20,000 nt of DNA. It comes from an uncultured virus (IMG/VR IMGVR_UViG_3300011008_002732). Taxonomy: Duplodnaviria; Heunggongvirae; Uroviricota; Caudoviricetes. Position 1 is the stretch's first letter. Every line of letters begins with the position of its first letter. The position numbers and the translations under genes are program-made. Shown here piece after piece: positions 8,397-17,456 of the stretch. The DNA is taken from the IMG/VR virus record IMGVR_UViG_3300011008_002732; one strand, 5' to 3'. The notes beneath the pieces were generated by a model that worked only from the letters and a program-made list of their open reading frames with translations, ran no database searches and was not told where the DNA came from.

Positions 8397-9143
8397 TTAA
8401 CTTTTACTTTCAGAGATCTGCTCCACATGCTGTTTCACATACTCTTCGGGGGTAACGATCGTATGCTTCATCAGAGTCTTACGCATCGTTTCCTGCGTTG
8501 ACCTGTCGAGGTTGTAAACGTTATGGATAATCTCATTGCACATTTTCACAAGAGACTCCACAGACAAGGGCGAAGGCTGTCCCTTCTTCTTTGGTCTTGC
8601 AAGGGCCTTGGCAGGGTTCTCCAGCAATTCCTTGGTGAAGTTCTTCGGTTCGCCATGCATCTTCACATACTCCTCGTAGGTGATGGCATTCTTCCTATCC
8701 CTCTCACGCTGCTCGTCTCGAAGCTGCCGTTCCCTCTCATCGTAGGCATAGCAGCGTTCCTTGCAGAACTCCCTCAGAGACGTAGTGATAATCAGAGGGT
8801 CTATGCTTCCGTAGAACCTGCCGTACCTCCCGGACTTGAACCGATGGAAGAATAGCATCAGTTCAGACACCTTCAGATAACAGAAGTCCGTTGCTATCAC
8901 GCTGGCACATTCCTCCAGCGGTTTGCCCTGCAACTTCTCCCTTGCACCGCAATACTCCGAGAGGTTGTAGAGTTGGGGAACCAGCCACATCGTGGCGGTC
9001 ATTTCACCGTAGGTCATGTTCAGTTCCGAAAGGACAGGGGCATCACCGAAGTAGCACAGTTCCGCGTCCTTGCACACCTTCATCTGCAGGTCTGGATTGA
9101 ACAGCGTAAGGAACTTCGTCCTGTCACCGTATCGGGTTATCAT
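8397..9143 (-). CDS. Putative helicase loader/inhibitor-like protein (DUF6633-like)
   Basis: Follows the initiator; YLKVSELMLFFHRFKSGRYGRFYGSIDP motif; start could be 9143 or as far as 9227. Confidence 0.6.
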   Translation of the reverse strand: MITRYGDRTKFLTLFNPDLQMKVCKDAELCYFGDAPVLSELNMTYGEMTATMWLVPQLYNLSEYCGAREKLQGKPLEECASVIATDFCYLKVSELMLFFHRFKSGRYGRFYGSIDPLIITTSLREFCKERCYAYDERERQLRDEQRERDRKNAITYEEYVKMHGEPKNFTKELLENPAKALARPKKKGQPSPLSVESLVKMCNEIIHNVYNLDRSTQETMRKTLMKHTIVTPEEYVKQHVEQISESKS

Positions 9144-10107
9144 CGCTTCCTTCTTGCGCTGCAAGTCGGGCGATAATGCTGGCTGCGTCTGCGGCACGAG
9201 CCTCCTTGTTAGACTTATTAACCCCATTGCTATTTCCGTTTGTGATAGCAGCCCTTGCCTGGGCCACCACCTCGTTATACTTTCCGTTTATACTTGTCAC
9301 GCTGAAGTTCTTCAGCAGCCACGGGTCTGTGATGGAGTTGAGGAATGCCGTCAATGCTTTCAGCACGTCCTCTTCCTCCACGCTCATGCCCTTCTGCTTG
9401 CGTGAGTGGATAATCTTCTTCGTGAGTGCATCCATTGCTGCCGCGTCCTTTGCCTGCCAGTAGTACACCCCGCCATCGAACAAGTCCGAATACCGCTTCT
9501 CGAAGATTTCCCTGCCTTTGGTGATAAGGGGGTTGACCTCCTTCTTCTTTGAGGGTTTCTTCTCCACCGGCTTCTGATCCTGCGCGTCAAGCCGTTCCTT
9601 CAGTTCGGACAACTGTTCTTGCATCTGTAGAAGGAGTTTCATGGGTTCCCCACCCAAGCCGACGTCGCAATTTTGCGACTCGGCCTTTATATTATTATCT
9701 TCTTCTTTTAGTCTTCTTATAAGATGCTCGTTTGCCTGCCCGTTTGGTGTCTCATTTGCTGACTCGTTTGTTGACTCGTTTTGCTGATACTTCTCATAGT
9801 TTATGATTGAGATACAGCCGATTACATTGTTTTTCTGTACGCTCACTCTCTTGTCCGACACGAGGTACGAGATAAACCTCTCTACCTTTCCGCGACTCCA
9901 TTTCCACCGCTCGGCCAGTTCAAGGGTGCCCTTATAGACACATCCTCTCTTGGCCTTCACTCTGATACCTCTGACAAAAAACTCGCTCGGGGCAAAGTAC
10001 GCTAACAGGATGAGGTCACACCAAGCCTGCCATTTCGTGAACGGCTCCTTGAGATAGAGGGGGTCGTTCAGCGACGAGCGGTACAACTTGATATATCCTG
10101 TTGCCAT
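9124..10107 (-). CDS. Phage replication initiator / replisome organizer
   Basis: MATGYIKLYR...FTKWQAWCDLILLA...LAERWKWSRGKVERFI...ISIINYEKYQ winged-helix N-terminus; internal iterons; start reassigned to ATG 10107. Confidence 0.8.
   Translation of the reverse strand: MATGYIKLYRSSLNDPLYLKEPFTKWQAWCDLILLAYFAPSEFFVRGIRVKAKRGCVYKGTLELAERWKWSRGKVERFISYLVSDKRVSVQKNNVIGCISIINYEKYQQNESTNESANETPNGQANEHLIRRLKEEDNNIKAESQNCDVGLGGEPMKLLLQMQEQLSELKERLDAQDQKPVEKKPSKKKEVNPLITKGREIFEKRYSDLFDGGVYYWQAKDAAAMDALTKKIIHSRKQKGMSVEEEDVLKALTAFLNSITDPWLLKNFSVTSINGKYNEVVAQARAAITNGNSNGVNKSNKEARAADAASIIARLAAQEGSDDNPIR
9664..9782. repeat. Putative replication origin: five 12-bp-period iterons, AT-rich tract and inverted repeat
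   Basis: gctcgtttg 9726, gcccgtttg 9738, tctcatttg 9750, actcgtttg 9762, actcgtttt 9774; AT-rich 9686-9724; gtcgcaa-tt-ttgcgac 9664-9679. Confidence 0.7.
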
Positions 10108-10121
10108 ATTAACAAAACATA

Positions 10122-10229
10122 GGTCCCAAACAGCCAACCTCTCTGCGTTCGCAGGTGACATTAGAAGTCGGTCTGATTGGAACCCGTAATTTCTCTTGAA
10201 CACTATCTGCAAATGTCACTAAGCAGATA
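10122..10229 (-). ncRNA. Structured RNA leader with probable pseudoknot upstream of the initiator
   Basis: 7-bp hairpin with loop GUGACAUU; about 20-bp stem with G-U pairs enclosing AAUGUCAC and a CUGC-GAAC-GCAG hairpin. Confidence 0.65.
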
Positions 10230-10244
10230 TTTTGATTTCTTGTG

Positions 10245-10272
10245 CAAAGGTACAAAAAATGATTGAAACAAA
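10245..10272 (-). promoter_or_regulatory. Bacteroidetes-type promoter for the replication genes
   Basis: Consensus -7 box TACCTTTG (10252-10245); upstream TTTG at shorter than usual spacing (16 nt). Confidence 0.65.
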
Positions 10273-10313
10273 CGCACATTTTCACGAAAAATCGCATGGT
10301 TGCTAACATTTTT

Positions 10314-10808
10314 TCAGATTTTCACTGTTATACCTTTCTCTGCACTCAGTCTTTTCACCTCATTGGTGAAGTAGTCTATCTTTTCCTGTAACTCGAAGTC
10401 CAGCCAGTGCTTCTGTGACCTGGCCATCATTTCAAGCCTGTTTATCCTGTCGAGTCCAATCTTCTCGACCAAGTTCCTGCGGTAGCCTATCAAGTGGTCT
10501 GCACTAGCCCTGTTGCAGGCACGGCATTCCATGTGGCAGTTGTCCGGCTCCCACCGCGTCGCCATGTGGGTGCGCGAATGGTAGTGGCCGCAATCGCCCT
10601 GCTCGAAACGCTTTATCTGTCCGCAACTAATACATCTGAAGCATCCGTTGGGCATTGCGTCTCTGAGGCGAATGTACGCGCTGAACACCTTGTCAAGTTT
10701 CTTGCTGAGGTCGGCCGGCTTCCTGCCAGCCTGCTTCTTGGCCTTCGGGAAGAGGTCTTGCTCTGCAGACTTCTTCTTTGGCTTGCGTTTCATGTACCAC
10801 GGGAACAT
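10314..10808 (-). CDS. ninG: NinG/Rap-like recombination endonuclease
   Basis: LDKVFSAYIRLRD...CISCG...DCGHYHSR...TRWEPDNCHMECRACN. Confidence 0.85.
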   Translation of the reverse strand: MFPWYMKRKPKKKSAEQDLFPKAKKQAGRKPADLSKKLDKVFSAYIRLRDAMPNGCFRCISCGQIKRFEQGDCGHYHSRTHMATRWEPDNCHMECRACNRASADHLIGYRRNLVEKIGLDRINRLEMMARSQKHWLDFELQEKIDYFTNEVKRLSAEKGITVKI

Positions 10809-10809
10809 A

Positions 10810-11142
10810 CTACTCGAACTTTGTTTCGACAATAATCAGCGGCTCCATGGATAGCAGGAACTTAACCTCACAACCGATGGCGACGGCCACATTGAAATCC
10901 TGTGTGCATCCTGCGCTGTGGTTCCACTTGGGCAGCAGGAGGATGGTGTCACACTCACAGAGCATCTTGAAATCGACTCGCATATGCTCATGGGTGGTGG
11001 CATCCTTCGGCAATCCGTTGAACATGGGGTTGAACACTTCATATCCTTGCTTCTCCAACATCTGCTGGATGGTGAGGAATGTTTGCTTCCTCTCGGAATA
11101 GTCATAATGGCTTATAGGACCGCTGATATAAATTCTCTTCAC
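10810..11142 (-). CDS. DUF4406 / nucleoside deoxyribosyltransferase-like protein
   Basis: IYISGPIS...GYEVFNP...MRVDFKMLCECDTILLLPKWNHSAGC. Confidence 0.8.
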   Translation of the reverse strand: MKRIYISGPISHYDYSERKQTFLTIQQMLEKQGYEVFNPMFNGLPKDATTHEHMRVDFKMLCECDTILLLPKWNHSAGCTQDFNVAVAIGCEVKFLLSMEPLIIVETKFE

Positions 11143-17368: not shown

Positions 17369-17456
17369 TTTGGCGATTTCGTACATTTTTACCAATTTTG
17401 CACTGTTATTTATAAAAGATAGTGCAAAGGTAGCAATTATAATTAGAATATTCAAA
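17369..17456. promoter_or_regulatory. Lysis/lysogeny switch region
   Basis: Minus: TTTG (17456-17453), 20 nt, TACCTTTG (17432-17425). Plus: TTTG (17369), 20 nt, CAATTTTG (17393-17400). Inverted repeat tttgcact...agtgcaaa between them. Confidence 0.65.

What the first reader, a model, noticed from the sequence alone, without database searches (positions are those of the whole stretch)
10122..10252. Pseudoknotted RNA leader between a dedicated promoter and the replication initiator
Seen on the minus strand after the TACCTTTG box: P1 UAUCUGC/GCAGAUA (10229-10204) with loop UUAGUGACAUUU. Then a long stem GGUUCCAAUCAG-A-CCGACUUCU / AGAGGUUGG-CUGUUUGGGACC (10184-10122) with three G-U pairs that work only on this strand. 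The stem encloses an unpaired AAUGUCAC plus a CUGC-GAAC-GCAG hairpin. AAUGUCAC is the exact 8-nt complement of the P1 loop GUGACAUU, and the stem ends 14 nt before the ATG. Inference: a cis-regulatory or processed antisense RNA controlling replication genes, conceptually like the P1 C4 or P4 CI RNAs that pair with their own leader. It could act as a second immunity layer. I do not recognise the family.
Basis: partly seen in the sequence, partly recalled or inferred. Interest (0 to 1): 0.7.

Follow-up and report, generated by a model that had tools for sequence, protein, structure and literature searches.

The report
Pseudoknotted leader RNA before phage replication gene
A small group of phages of rumen Prevotella-like bacteria carries a conserved, knotted RNA fold, crossed by a short open reading frame, just ahead of their DNA-replication starter gene, and it probably gates how much of that protein is made.

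Summary
The fold has z -3.87 on this strand against -1.22 on the other.

Eleven further distinct copies were found in IMG/VR phage contigs, metagenome contigs and one Prevotella MAG. Each lies between a NinG/Rap gene and a DnaD-like initiator/loader gene. Across the 12 sequences, 95.2% of pair cells are standard pairs and 25 of 40 pairs change on both sides (0 of 500 shuffles reach this). The pseudoknot is paired in 12 of 12. Rfam 15 has no match, so this is a new RNA family.

One feature is new. An ORF of 54-92 codons runs through the whole fold in 12 of 12. It starts upstream of the conserved TAYCTTTR promoter box and ends at or near the initiator ATG. Its peptide is not conserved, but its openness is non-random (0 of 5000 shuffles).

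The best reading is a cis-acting gate on initiator expression. A terminator-like hairpin with a U tract is overcome by ribosomes translating the leader ORF. This mechanism is inferred, not shown. The P1 C4 / P4 CI "immunity RNA" idea found no support.

The parts
10314..10832 (-). NinG/Rap-like junction endonuclease gene (stop TGA 10316-10314), upstream neighbour in all members looked at
   Evidence: Pfam NinG 1.8e-24; PHROG 5034 1.2e-42. The upstream sequences of the homologues end in the same reading frame.
10109..10309 (-). Leader ORF of 66 codons. ATG 10309 lies 4 nt after the ninG stop, and TAA 10111-10109 lies 1 nt before the initiator ATG. The ORF runs through the promoter box and the whole RNA fold.
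   Evidence: An ORF of 54-92 codons is present in 12 of 12 members. The peptide is not conserved: frame shifts occur in L007, L112 and L149, and minimum changes by codon position are 68/75/88. Openness is non-random: 0 of 5000 column shuffles give 12 of 12 open, and P(>=10) is 0.0036. There are 0 stop sites in this frame against 17 and 13 in the other two. It matches no protein family.
10245..10252 (-). Bacteroidota-type -7 promoter box TACCTTTG (inferred promoter; TSS expected near 10240-10236)
   Evidence: It is conserved as TAYCTTTR in 12 of 12. The consensus TAnnTTTG is taken from passages of PMC7366714. No transcript data are available.
10204..10229 (-). P1 hairpin: 7-bp stem and 12-nt loop
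   Evidence: 6 of 7 pairs change on both sides.
10212..10219 (-). Pseudoknot 5' strand GUGACAUU, in the P1 loop
   Evidence: The 8 pairs are 100% paired in 12 of 12. Two pairs are compensatory (in L004 only), and there are 4 G-U cells.
10186..10203 (-). Variable A-rich linker between P1 and P2 (length 9-18 nt among members)
   Evidence: alignments
10121..10185 (-). P2 long stem (21 pairs, one U-U mismatch, one bulged A). It encloses the 8-nt internal loop and P3.
   Evidence: (15 of 21 pairs change on both sides). The hairpin alone folds at -30.6 to -34.2 kcal/mol in the 5 members computed before the script stopped.
10155..10162 (-). Pseudoknot 3' strand AAUGUCAC, the internal loop between P2 and P3 with no unpaired flanking nucleotide
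10143..10154 (-). P3 hairpin CUGC-GAAC-GCAG (4 bp with a variable tetraloop)
   Evidence: 100% paired; 2 of 4 pairs change on both sides
10108..10120 (-). U-rich spacer between P2 and the initiator ATG
   Evidence: At least 5 T in 8 within 0-2 nt of the stem in 11 of 12 members. This start context is A-poor and U-rich compared with 18 other gene starts in the window.
9124..10107 (-). DnaD-like helicase loader / replication initiator gene (327 aa)
   Evidence: PHROG 2514 at 5.4e-22, PHROG 186 at 4.6e-13, PHROG 428 at 3.2e-5. No Pfam, NCBIfam or PDB sequence match.

Best explanation
This is a real, previously uncatalogued cis-acting RNA element in the mRNA leader of the phage replication initiator/loader gene.

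Shown:
- It is an H-type pseudoknot. The P1 loop pairs with the internal loop of a long P2/P3 hairpin. The loop lengths of 3 nt and 1 nt are invariant.
- It is conserved with covariation and is single-copy per phage genome.
- It always lies between ninG and the initiator gene.
- It is followed by a U-rich tract.
- It is crossed end to end by an ORF that is kept open although its peptide is not conserved.

Inferred mechanism: the P2/P3 hairpin plus U tract acts as an attenuator. It is terminator-like and also abuts an A-poor, weak start site. Ribosomes start the leader ORF 4 nt after ninG, on read-through transcripts of the upstream replication/recombination operon. They melt the fold, suppress hairpin formation behind the polymerase, and stop at the initiator ATG, where they can re-initiate. 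Initiator synthesis is therefore gated by ribosome traversal.

Transcripts from the internal TAYCTTTR promoter lack the ORF's start codon. They would fold into the pseudoknot and be terminated or poorly translated.

The pseudoknot most likely pre-organises and stiffens the hairpin, setting the threshold. Its exact role is not known.
For: Structure:
- z -3.87.
- Among 12 members, 95.2% of cells are paired and 25 of 40 pairs are compensatory; 0 of 500 shuffles reach this.
- RNAalifold predicts the same helices.
- 41 G-U cells against 8 A-C cells.

Single copy and context:
- One R1 hit in each of 5 of 5 phage records of 52-74 kb.
- The initiator protein begins M-x-x-GYIKLYR in 10 of 12 and M-E-GYVKLYR in L007/L112, 13-19 nt after P2.

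Leader ORF:
- Present in 12 of 12.
- Openness: 0 of 5000 frame-preserving column shuffles give 12 of 12.
- Stop sites are 0 / 17 / 13 in the three frames.
- The stop always lies at least 5 nt beyond the last P2 pair. It is 1-7 nt before the ATG in 8 of 12 members and overlaps the gene start in 4 of 12.
- ORF starts (-99 to -162) all lie upstream of the -7 box (-72 to -87).

Terminator-like features:
- Hairpin of -30.6 to -34.2 kcal/mol in 5 of 5 computed.
- U tract in 11 of 12.

Weak autonomous start:
- 5.2 A and 8.2 T in the 20 nt before the initiator ATG.
- 10.6 A and 3.3 T before the leader ORF.
- 8.1 A and 4.0 T for 18 other starts in the window.
- Bacteroidota lack Shine-Dalgarno sequences and favour A at -3, -6 and -11 to -15 (passages of PMC7366714).

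Precedent: ribosomes that translate to within a few bp of, or through, an intrinsic terminator repress it, from about 90% to under 10% efficiency (passages of PMC4824070, which also name the pyrBI leader).
Against: - No transcript, 3'-end or ribosome data exist for this element.
- Termination at the U tract is not shown. The simple terminator scan did not flag the site, because its loop limit is 8 nt.
- The U tract could instead be an S1-type enhancer or plain AT-rich spacer.
- The model gives the most conserved part, the 8-bp pseudoknot and the junction-proximal pairs, no necessary role.
- Such sequence conservation inside helices would fit recognition by a protein or another RNA better.
- It is odd for a promoter to sit upstream of its own terminator unless the short RNA has a use.
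- The promoter is inferred from a consensus. Window-wide, TANNTTTG is at chance level (9 matches against 8.7 expected).
- The ORF test chose the open frame after the fact, which calls for a factor of 3. The 12 sequences also include close relatives.
Confidence: 0.42

Rival explanations
1. This is a translational control element of the plasmid I-complex (IncI1/IncB) type. Leader-ORF translation and the pseudoknot together activate initiator translation. An unknown trans factor (RNA or protein) binds the P1 loop to shut it off. No transcription termination is involved.
For: The same three ingredients occur upstream of a replication initiator: a leader ORF ending at the rep start, a hairpin loop that forms a pseudoknot with a distal sequence, and coupling. 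The plasmid system is described in passages of PMC8053102. The P1 loop and its partner are the most conserved parts of the element. The initiator start is weak.
Against: The distal pseudoknot strand lies about 50 nt upstream of the ATG, inside a stable hairpin, and not next to the start site. No TANNTTTG box lies on the opposite strand between 8315 and 13044, so no antisense RNA gene is evident. There is no Rfam similarity.
Confidence: 0.17
2. The internal promoter makes a short (about 125-nt) terminated pseudoknot RNA. This RNA acts in trans on the long replication mRNA, or on other targets, as an immunity or copy-control RNA.
For: A conserved promoter box (12 of 12) sits about 10-15 nt before P1. 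A terminator-like 3' end follows in 11 of 12. The two conserved complementary 8-mers could kiss between molecules. Some relatives are classed as proviruses.
Against: There is only one copy of each 8-mer in the window. No conserved extra site exists in 5 relatives; 5 extra 9-mer matches lie at unrelated places and on both strands. The invariant loop geometry (3 nt / 8 bp / 1 nt) suits an intramolecular H-type knot. This reading does not explain the open reading frame.
Confidence: 0.13
3. It is a protein-binding operator in the mRNA. One version is autoregulation by the initiator or another phage protein, as in the T4 gene 32 leader pseudoknot. Another is an RNA that modifies RNA polymerase, as in HK022 put. 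Both comparisons are recalled, not tested.
For: The invariant nucleotides lie in helices around the P2/pseudoknot/P3 junction rather than in unpaired junctions. The element occurs only with one clade of initiators (at least 54% identity) and is absent from 7 more distant loci. It sits just after a promoter box.
Against: No RNA-binding domain was found in the initiator. No excess of terminators lies downstream that would call for antitermination (16 found against 16.0 expected). This reading does not explain the open frame.
Confidence: 0.13
4. It is a single-stranded DNA structure, such as a priming signal or origin element beside the loader gene, or a small self-cleaving ribozyme with pistol-like topology.
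For: G-T pairs are also tolerated in folded ssDNA. The location is next to replication genes. A hairpin loop pairing with the 5' side of an internal loop between two helices is the pistol topology (recalled).
Against: The element is co-oriented with a conserved promoter box and crossed by a selected ORF. No iterons or AT-rich unwinding region lie nearby. No Rfam ribozyme matches at E up to 10. There is no unpaired nucleotide on the 3' strand between P3 and P2, where pistol is cleaved.
Confidence: 0.06

Closest known systems
IncI1 (ColIb-P9 repY/repZ) and IncB (pMU720 repB/repA) replication control
   Same: A leader ORF ends at the initiator start. A hairpin loop forms a pseudoknot with a downstream sequence. 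Both lie upstream of a replication initiator gene. (The system is as described in passages of PMC8053102.)
   Different: Here the distal strand is inside a long hairpin about 50 nt before the ATG, not at the ribosome-binding site. The leader ORF is 54-92 codons and crosses the knot itself. No antisense RNA gene is evident. The host is a Bacteroidota phage without Shine-Dalgarno-type initiation. There is no sequence or Rfam similarity.
pyrBI-type translation-coupled attenuator (E. coli)
   Same: A leader ORF runs through a terminator-like hairpin and stops just beyond it, so a closely following ribosome can prevent the hairpin. (The principle is in passages of PMC4824070. The details of pyrBI are recalled.)
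   Different: No nucleotide-sensing pause is evident. The hairpin is much longer and knotted to an upstream hairpin. An internal promoter box lies inside the leader ORF. Termination is not shown.
P4 CI RNA and P1/P7 C4 RNA (phage immunity RNAs made from the leader of the operon they control)
   Same: A structured RNA is encoded in the sense strand of the leader of a replication/antirepressor operon, with complementarity to the same leader (recalled knowledge).
   Different: Those RNAs have two or more target sites. Here each 8-mer occurs once. There is no Rfam match, and processing is unknown.
Pistol self-cleaving ribozyme
   Same: The topology matches: a hairpin loop pairs with the 5' strand of the internal loop between two further helices (recalled).
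   Different: No Rfam hit at E up to 10. No unpaired 3'-strand junction nucleotides. It lies inside a selected ORF.
T4 gene 32 mRNA leader pseudoknot
   Same: A pseudoknot sits in the 5' leader of a phage replication-protein mRNA, followed by an A/U-rich stretch up to the start codon (recalled).
   Different: There is no evidence that the DnaD-like protein binds RNA. The spacing is far shorter (13-19 nt). A leader ORF is present.

Membership tests
Any Rfam 15 family | Covariance-model match | tested here: not met
   0 matches at gathering thresholds over the whole window. At E up to 10 on 10050-10350, the only hit is a chance mir-787 match (13.7 bits against a gathering score of 57), upstream of the element.
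I-complex plasmid rep leader (IncI1/IncB) | Leader peptide ORF that ends at or overlaps the initiator start | tested here: met
   12 of 12: the stop lies 1-7 nt before the ATG in 8 members and overlaps the gene start in 4.
I-complex plasmid rep leader (IncI1/IncB) | Pseudoknot whose distal strand lies next to the initiator ribosome-binding site | tested here: not met
   The pseudoknot is present, but the distal strand 10162-10155 lies 48-55 nt upstream of ATG 10107 and is enclosed by P2.
I-complex plasmid rep leader (IncI1/IncB) | Antisense RNA gene opposite the leader | tested here: inconclusive
   No TANNTTTG box on the plus strand between 8315 and 13044. The plus-strand fold is unremarkable (z -1.22). 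No RNA data are available.
P4 CI / P1 C4 immunity RNA | Two or more target sites in the operon complementary to the RNA | tested here: not met
   One copy of each 8-mer. One-mismatch matches number 19 against 18.6 expected. No conserved extra 9-mer in 5 related genomes.
P4 CI / P1 C4 immunity RNA | Processed small RNA conferring immunity | not testable with these tools
   No RNA run was listed for this sequence.
Intrinsic terminator / translation-coupled attenuator | Stable hairpin followed at once by a U tract | tested here: met
   Hairpin of -30.6 to -34.2 kcal/mol in 5 of 5 computed. At least 5 T in 8 within 0-2 nt of the stem in 11 of 12. The site is not flagged by the simple scan, whose loop limit is 8 nt.
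Intrinsic terminator / translation-coupled attenuator | Leader ORF spanning the hairpin with its stop beyond it | tested here: met
   12 of 12: stops lie at +49 to +114, against the last P2 pair at +44. Openness is non-random.
Intrinsic terminator / translation-coupled attenuator | Transcripts actually end at the U tract and read-through depends on translation | not testable with these tools
   No transcript data.
Pistol ribozyme | Unpaired junction with the scissile dinucleotide on the 3' strand between P3 and P2, and the conserved core | tested here: not met
   P3 and P2 are contiguous on the 3' strand, and the flanking pairs covary. No Rfam match.
Riboswitch | Conserved unpaired nucleotides forming a ligand pocket, with mutually exclusive expression-platform pairings | tested here: not met
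   The invariant columns lie in helices. Loop flanks and the linker vary. No conserved alternative pairing was seen.

The most novel reading that the evidence does not exclude
The element is a two-output device. On long operon transcripts it is a ribosome-gated attenuator for the initiator. From its own internal promoter it produces a roughly 125-nt terminated pseudoknot RNA. The two exposed 8-mers of that RNA kiss the same sites on the long mRNA in trans, blocking leader-ORF traversal. This would be a sense-strand 'countertranscript' giving copy-number or immunity control of phage replication in Bacteroidota, a mechanism class so far known only from plasmids and from P1/P4.
Probability: 0.12. 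Interest if true: 0.8.

Novelty: new variant of a known kind. Interest (0 to 1): 0.6.

Why it matters
Almost nothing is known about how phages of Bacteroidota, dominant bacteria of gut and rumen, control replication. Their hosts also lack Shine-Dalgarno-based initiation, so the RNA control devices worked out in E. coli cannot simply be assumed.

This element is a compact, covariation-supported RNA of about 110 nt. It has a testable pseudoknot, a leader ORF selected to stay open regardless of its peptide, and a clear target gene. It offers a tractable model for transcription-translation coupling and leader-based control in this phylum.

It is also a candidate for a new Rfam family. If it works as proposed, it would be a phage counterpart of the leader-peptide/pseudoknot control of plasmid replication.

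Tried and rejected
- **Known RNA genes.** Rfam gave nothing at gathering or E-value thresholds. ARAGORN found no tRNA or tmRNA.
- **First collection pattern.** It returned 66 stretches, of which 8 loci (7 contigs, all but two already in hand) were true members. The rest were chance matches or an unrelated coding repeat.
- **Core-pattern scans.**
  - Viral contigs: 8 of 8 stretches were true, on 8 contigs already in hand.
  - Metagenome contigs: 37 stretches, of which 10 were true and gave 3 new distinct sequences.
  - Genome contigs: 27 stretches, of which 1 was true, a Prevotella MAG.
  - A looser pattern allowing any middle dinucleotide in the knot gave 10 stretches. Five were known members and five were chance, in coding sequence.
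- **Searches with covariance model R1.**
  - No copy in 7 loci of more distant initiators.
  - 1 true and 1 weak hit in 151 genomes of the Prevotella MAG's family. The weak hit (29 bits) lacks the internal loop and was judged spurious.
- **Window's own assembly.** It is not held.
- **RNA evidence.** No RNA holder was listed for the sequence, so no reads could be laid.
- **Earlier findings of this scan.** None.
- **Programmed frameshifting into the initiator frame.** Rejected, because the relative frame of the leader ORF and the initiator differs among members (offsets) and no slippery site is conserved.
- **Leader ORF as a conserved small protein.** Rejected: the frame shifts among members, there is no codon-position bias, and it matches no family.
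- **Conserved pairing of the linker with the U tract, or of the U tract with the start of the gene.** Seen in some folds only and not pursued.
- **Start-site accessibility.** Unpaired probabilities of 0.34-0.49 in 5 members were uninformative. That script stopped on an assertion after 5 of 12.
- **Iterons or an origin near the element.** None found.
- **A second class of structured leader at a distant initiator (L010, z -5.59).** Not conserved in its 3 relatives.
- **Literature.** Full-text searches found no description of this element. Searches were for comparison systems.

Full report
**Context**

The window is a replication/recombination module of a phage or prophage of Bacteroidota, with its genes on the minus strand. 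The genes, in order, are:
- a PAPS-reductase-like gene
- a LuxR/sigma-like regulator
- Sak4
- NinB
- a helicase
- DUF4406
- NinG/Rap (10832-10314)
- a 206-nt gap
- a 327-aa protein matching PHROG 'DnaD-like helicase loader' (5.4e-22) and 'replication initiation protein' (3.2e-5), at 10107-9124

The protein has no Pfam, NCBIfam or PDB sequence match. 'Initiator/loader' therefore rests on PHROGs alone.

**Checking the observation**

- The minus-strand RNA 10260-10100 folds into P1, P2 and P3 at -48.6 kcal/mol, z -3.87, with 0 of 200 shuffles as good.
- The complementary strand gives z -1.22.
- The P1-loop octamer GUGACAUU (10219-10212) and the internal-loop octamer AAUGUCAC (10162-10155) are exact complements.
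- The last P2 pair lies 13-14 nt before ATG 10107.

**Relatives**

- A protein-based scan of IMG/VR gave 14 loci. The 7 closest initiators (at least 54% identity) carry the element. The 7 more distant ones (35-47% over the N-terminal domain) do not.
- DNA-pattern scans of viral, metagenome and genome collections added further copies among many chance matches, which I sorted by inspection.
- The total is 12 distinct sequences, one of them on a contig of a Prevotella MAG (L149).
- A covariance model (R1) finds exactly one copy in each of 5 of 5 related phage records of 52-74 kb. Among these, one is classed as having terminal repeats and one as a provirus.
- Among 151 genomes of that MAG's family, R1 finds the seed plus one weak hit that I judge spurious.
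- The family is therefore real but narrow.

**Structure**

On the 12-sequence alignment:
- 95.2% of 478 pair cells are standard pairs, against 83.5% in shuffles and 36-43% for slid partners.
- 25 of 40 pairs change on both sides.
- No shuffle of 500 reaches any of the five measures.
- By helix, pairs changing on both sides number 6 of 7 in P1, 15 of 21 in P2, 2 of 4 in P3 and 2 of 8 in the pseudoknot.

The pseudoknot is paired in all 96 cells. Its two both-sided changes come from one sequence, L004 (GUAGCGUU with AAUGCUAC), which was found through the protein and not through the motif. Four further cells are A-to-G changes that give G-U. The second and later patterns did not constrain the P1 loop, so its complementarity in those hits is not an artefact of the search.

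RNAalifold predicts the same nested helices on its own (31 pairs, 22 with compensatory change). G-U cells number 41 against 8 A-C cells, so selection acts on this strand.

The topology is an H-type pseudoknot with invariant loop lengths: 3 nt before and 1 nt after the loop strand. No nucleotide is unpaired between P2, the knot strand and P3. The invariant nucleotides sit in the helices around that junction. The P3 tetraloop, the linker and most of P1 and P2 vary freely.

An ORF runs through the entire leader in 12 of 12 members, with 54-92 codons.
- In the window it starts at ATG 10309, 4 nt after the ninG stop. It ends at TAA 10111-10109, 1 nt before the initiator ATG.
- Its peptide is not conserved. 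The frame shifts relative to the RNA core in L007, L112 and L149. Minimum changes by codon position are 68/75/88. It matches no family.
- Yet its openness is not chance. I shuffled the variable columns while keeping pairing, relatedness and frames. 0 of 5000 arrangements left all 12 open, and 0.36% left 10 or more open.
- Across the alignment, the other two frames hold stops at 17 and 13 distinct sites. This frame holds none. Allow a factor of 3 for choosing the frame after the fact.
- In every member the ORF starts upstream of the promoter box (-99 to -162 against -72 to -87). In every member it stops at least 5 nt beyond the last P2 pair.
- The stop is 1-7 nt before the initiator ATG in 8 of 12 members and overlaps the gene start in 4.

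**Other features bearing on mechanism**

- *U tract.* The 8-12 nt after P2 are U-rich: at least 5 T in 8 in 11 of 12 members. The P2/P3 hairpin alone is worth -30.6 to -34.2 kcal/mol in the 5 members computed.
- *Start contexts.* The 20 nt before the initiator start hold on average 5.2 A and 8.2 T. Before the leader ORF start they hold 10.6 A and 3.3 T. For 18 other starts in the window the figures are 8.1 A and 4.0 T.
- *Host translation.* Bacteroidota lack Shine-Dalgarno sequences and favour A at -3, -6 and -11 to -15 (passages of PMC7366714).
- *Promoter box.* It matches the TAnnTTTG -7 consensus given in the same passages and is conserved as TAYCTTTR in 12 of 12. An identical TACCTTTGCAC lies in the only other large gap of the gene array, before the LuxR/sigma-like gene. 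Window-wide, however, the bare motif is at chance frequency. No transcript data could be obtained.

**Best explanation**

The element acts in cis on expression of the initiator. I read the P2/P3 hairpin with its U tract as an attenuator that also abuts a weak start site.

Ribosomes begin the leader ORF right after ninG on transcripts of the upstream operon. They must traverse and melt the fold. A ribosome close behind the polymerase would prevent the hairpin, and the ribosome then stops at the initiator ATG, where it can re-initiate.

This accounts for several findings:
- the open but sequence-indifferent frame
- the position of its start and stop
- the U tract
- the poor autonomous start context

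Experiments in E. coli show that ribosomes reaching to within a few bp of an intrinsic terminator cut its efficiency from about 90% to under 10% (passages of PMC4824070).

The reading does not explain why the 8-bp knot and the junction pairs are the most conserved part. It also does not explain what the internal promoter is for. I put this mechanism at about 0.4. The existence of a functional RNA structure I put at about 0.9.

**Rivals**

- *Purely translational device of the IncI1/IncB kind.* This would combine a leader peptide, a pseudoknot and an antisense RNA (passages of PMC8053102). It shares three ingredients with this element. But the distal knot strand is not at the start site, and no antisense gene is evident.
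But there is no second target, and the idea does not explain the open frame.
- *A protein-binding operator.* This fits the conservation inside helices but has no direct support.
- *ssDNA or ribozyme readings.* These are unlikely.

**Novelty**

Rfam 15 has no match. Two full-text searches aimed at such an element found no description. Supplements were not consulted.

The kind of element, a structured cis-regulatory leader with a leader ORF before a replication gene, is known from plasmids and from attenuators. This family, its knot-inside-an-ORF layout and its host group are new.

Noticed in passing
window 17422-17432 (-): A second TACCTTTGCAC box, identical over 11 nt to the one at 10252-10242. 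It lies in the 267-nt gap upstream of the LuxR/sigma-like gene and is probably the promoter of the whole replication/recombination operon.
   Followed up: partly
window 10270-10299 (-): A small inverted repeat (GCGATTT, 6-7 nt, AAAATGTGC) just upstream of the -7 box, conserved in most members. It is a possible regulator-binding site. The weak Rfam mir-787 hit only reflects this hairpin-like region.
   Followed up: no
L010:1360-1515: A distant initiator homologue (47% identity over the N-terminal domain) has an unrelated, very stable leader hairpin with flanking A and U runs, ending 4 nt before its ATG (z -5.59). It is not conserved in its three relatives.
   Followed up: partly
window 9124-9227 (-): The initiator ORF and the next ORF (DUF6633, 9227-8397) overlap by 104 nt if ATG 9227 is the start. 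The true start of the downstream gene may lie further in.
   Followed up: no
L155:1501-1598: A weak R1 match (29 bits) in another genome of the family. It is a plain long hairpin without the internal loop or the knot partner, and I judged it unrelated.
   Followed up: yes
L022-L080 (about 20 loci, span 64): The first pattern also hit a repeated, nearly identical coding stretch in many isolate-derived proviruses, unrelated to the element. It serves as a reminder that inverted 8-10-mers 50 nt apart occur by chance in large collections.
   Followed up: no
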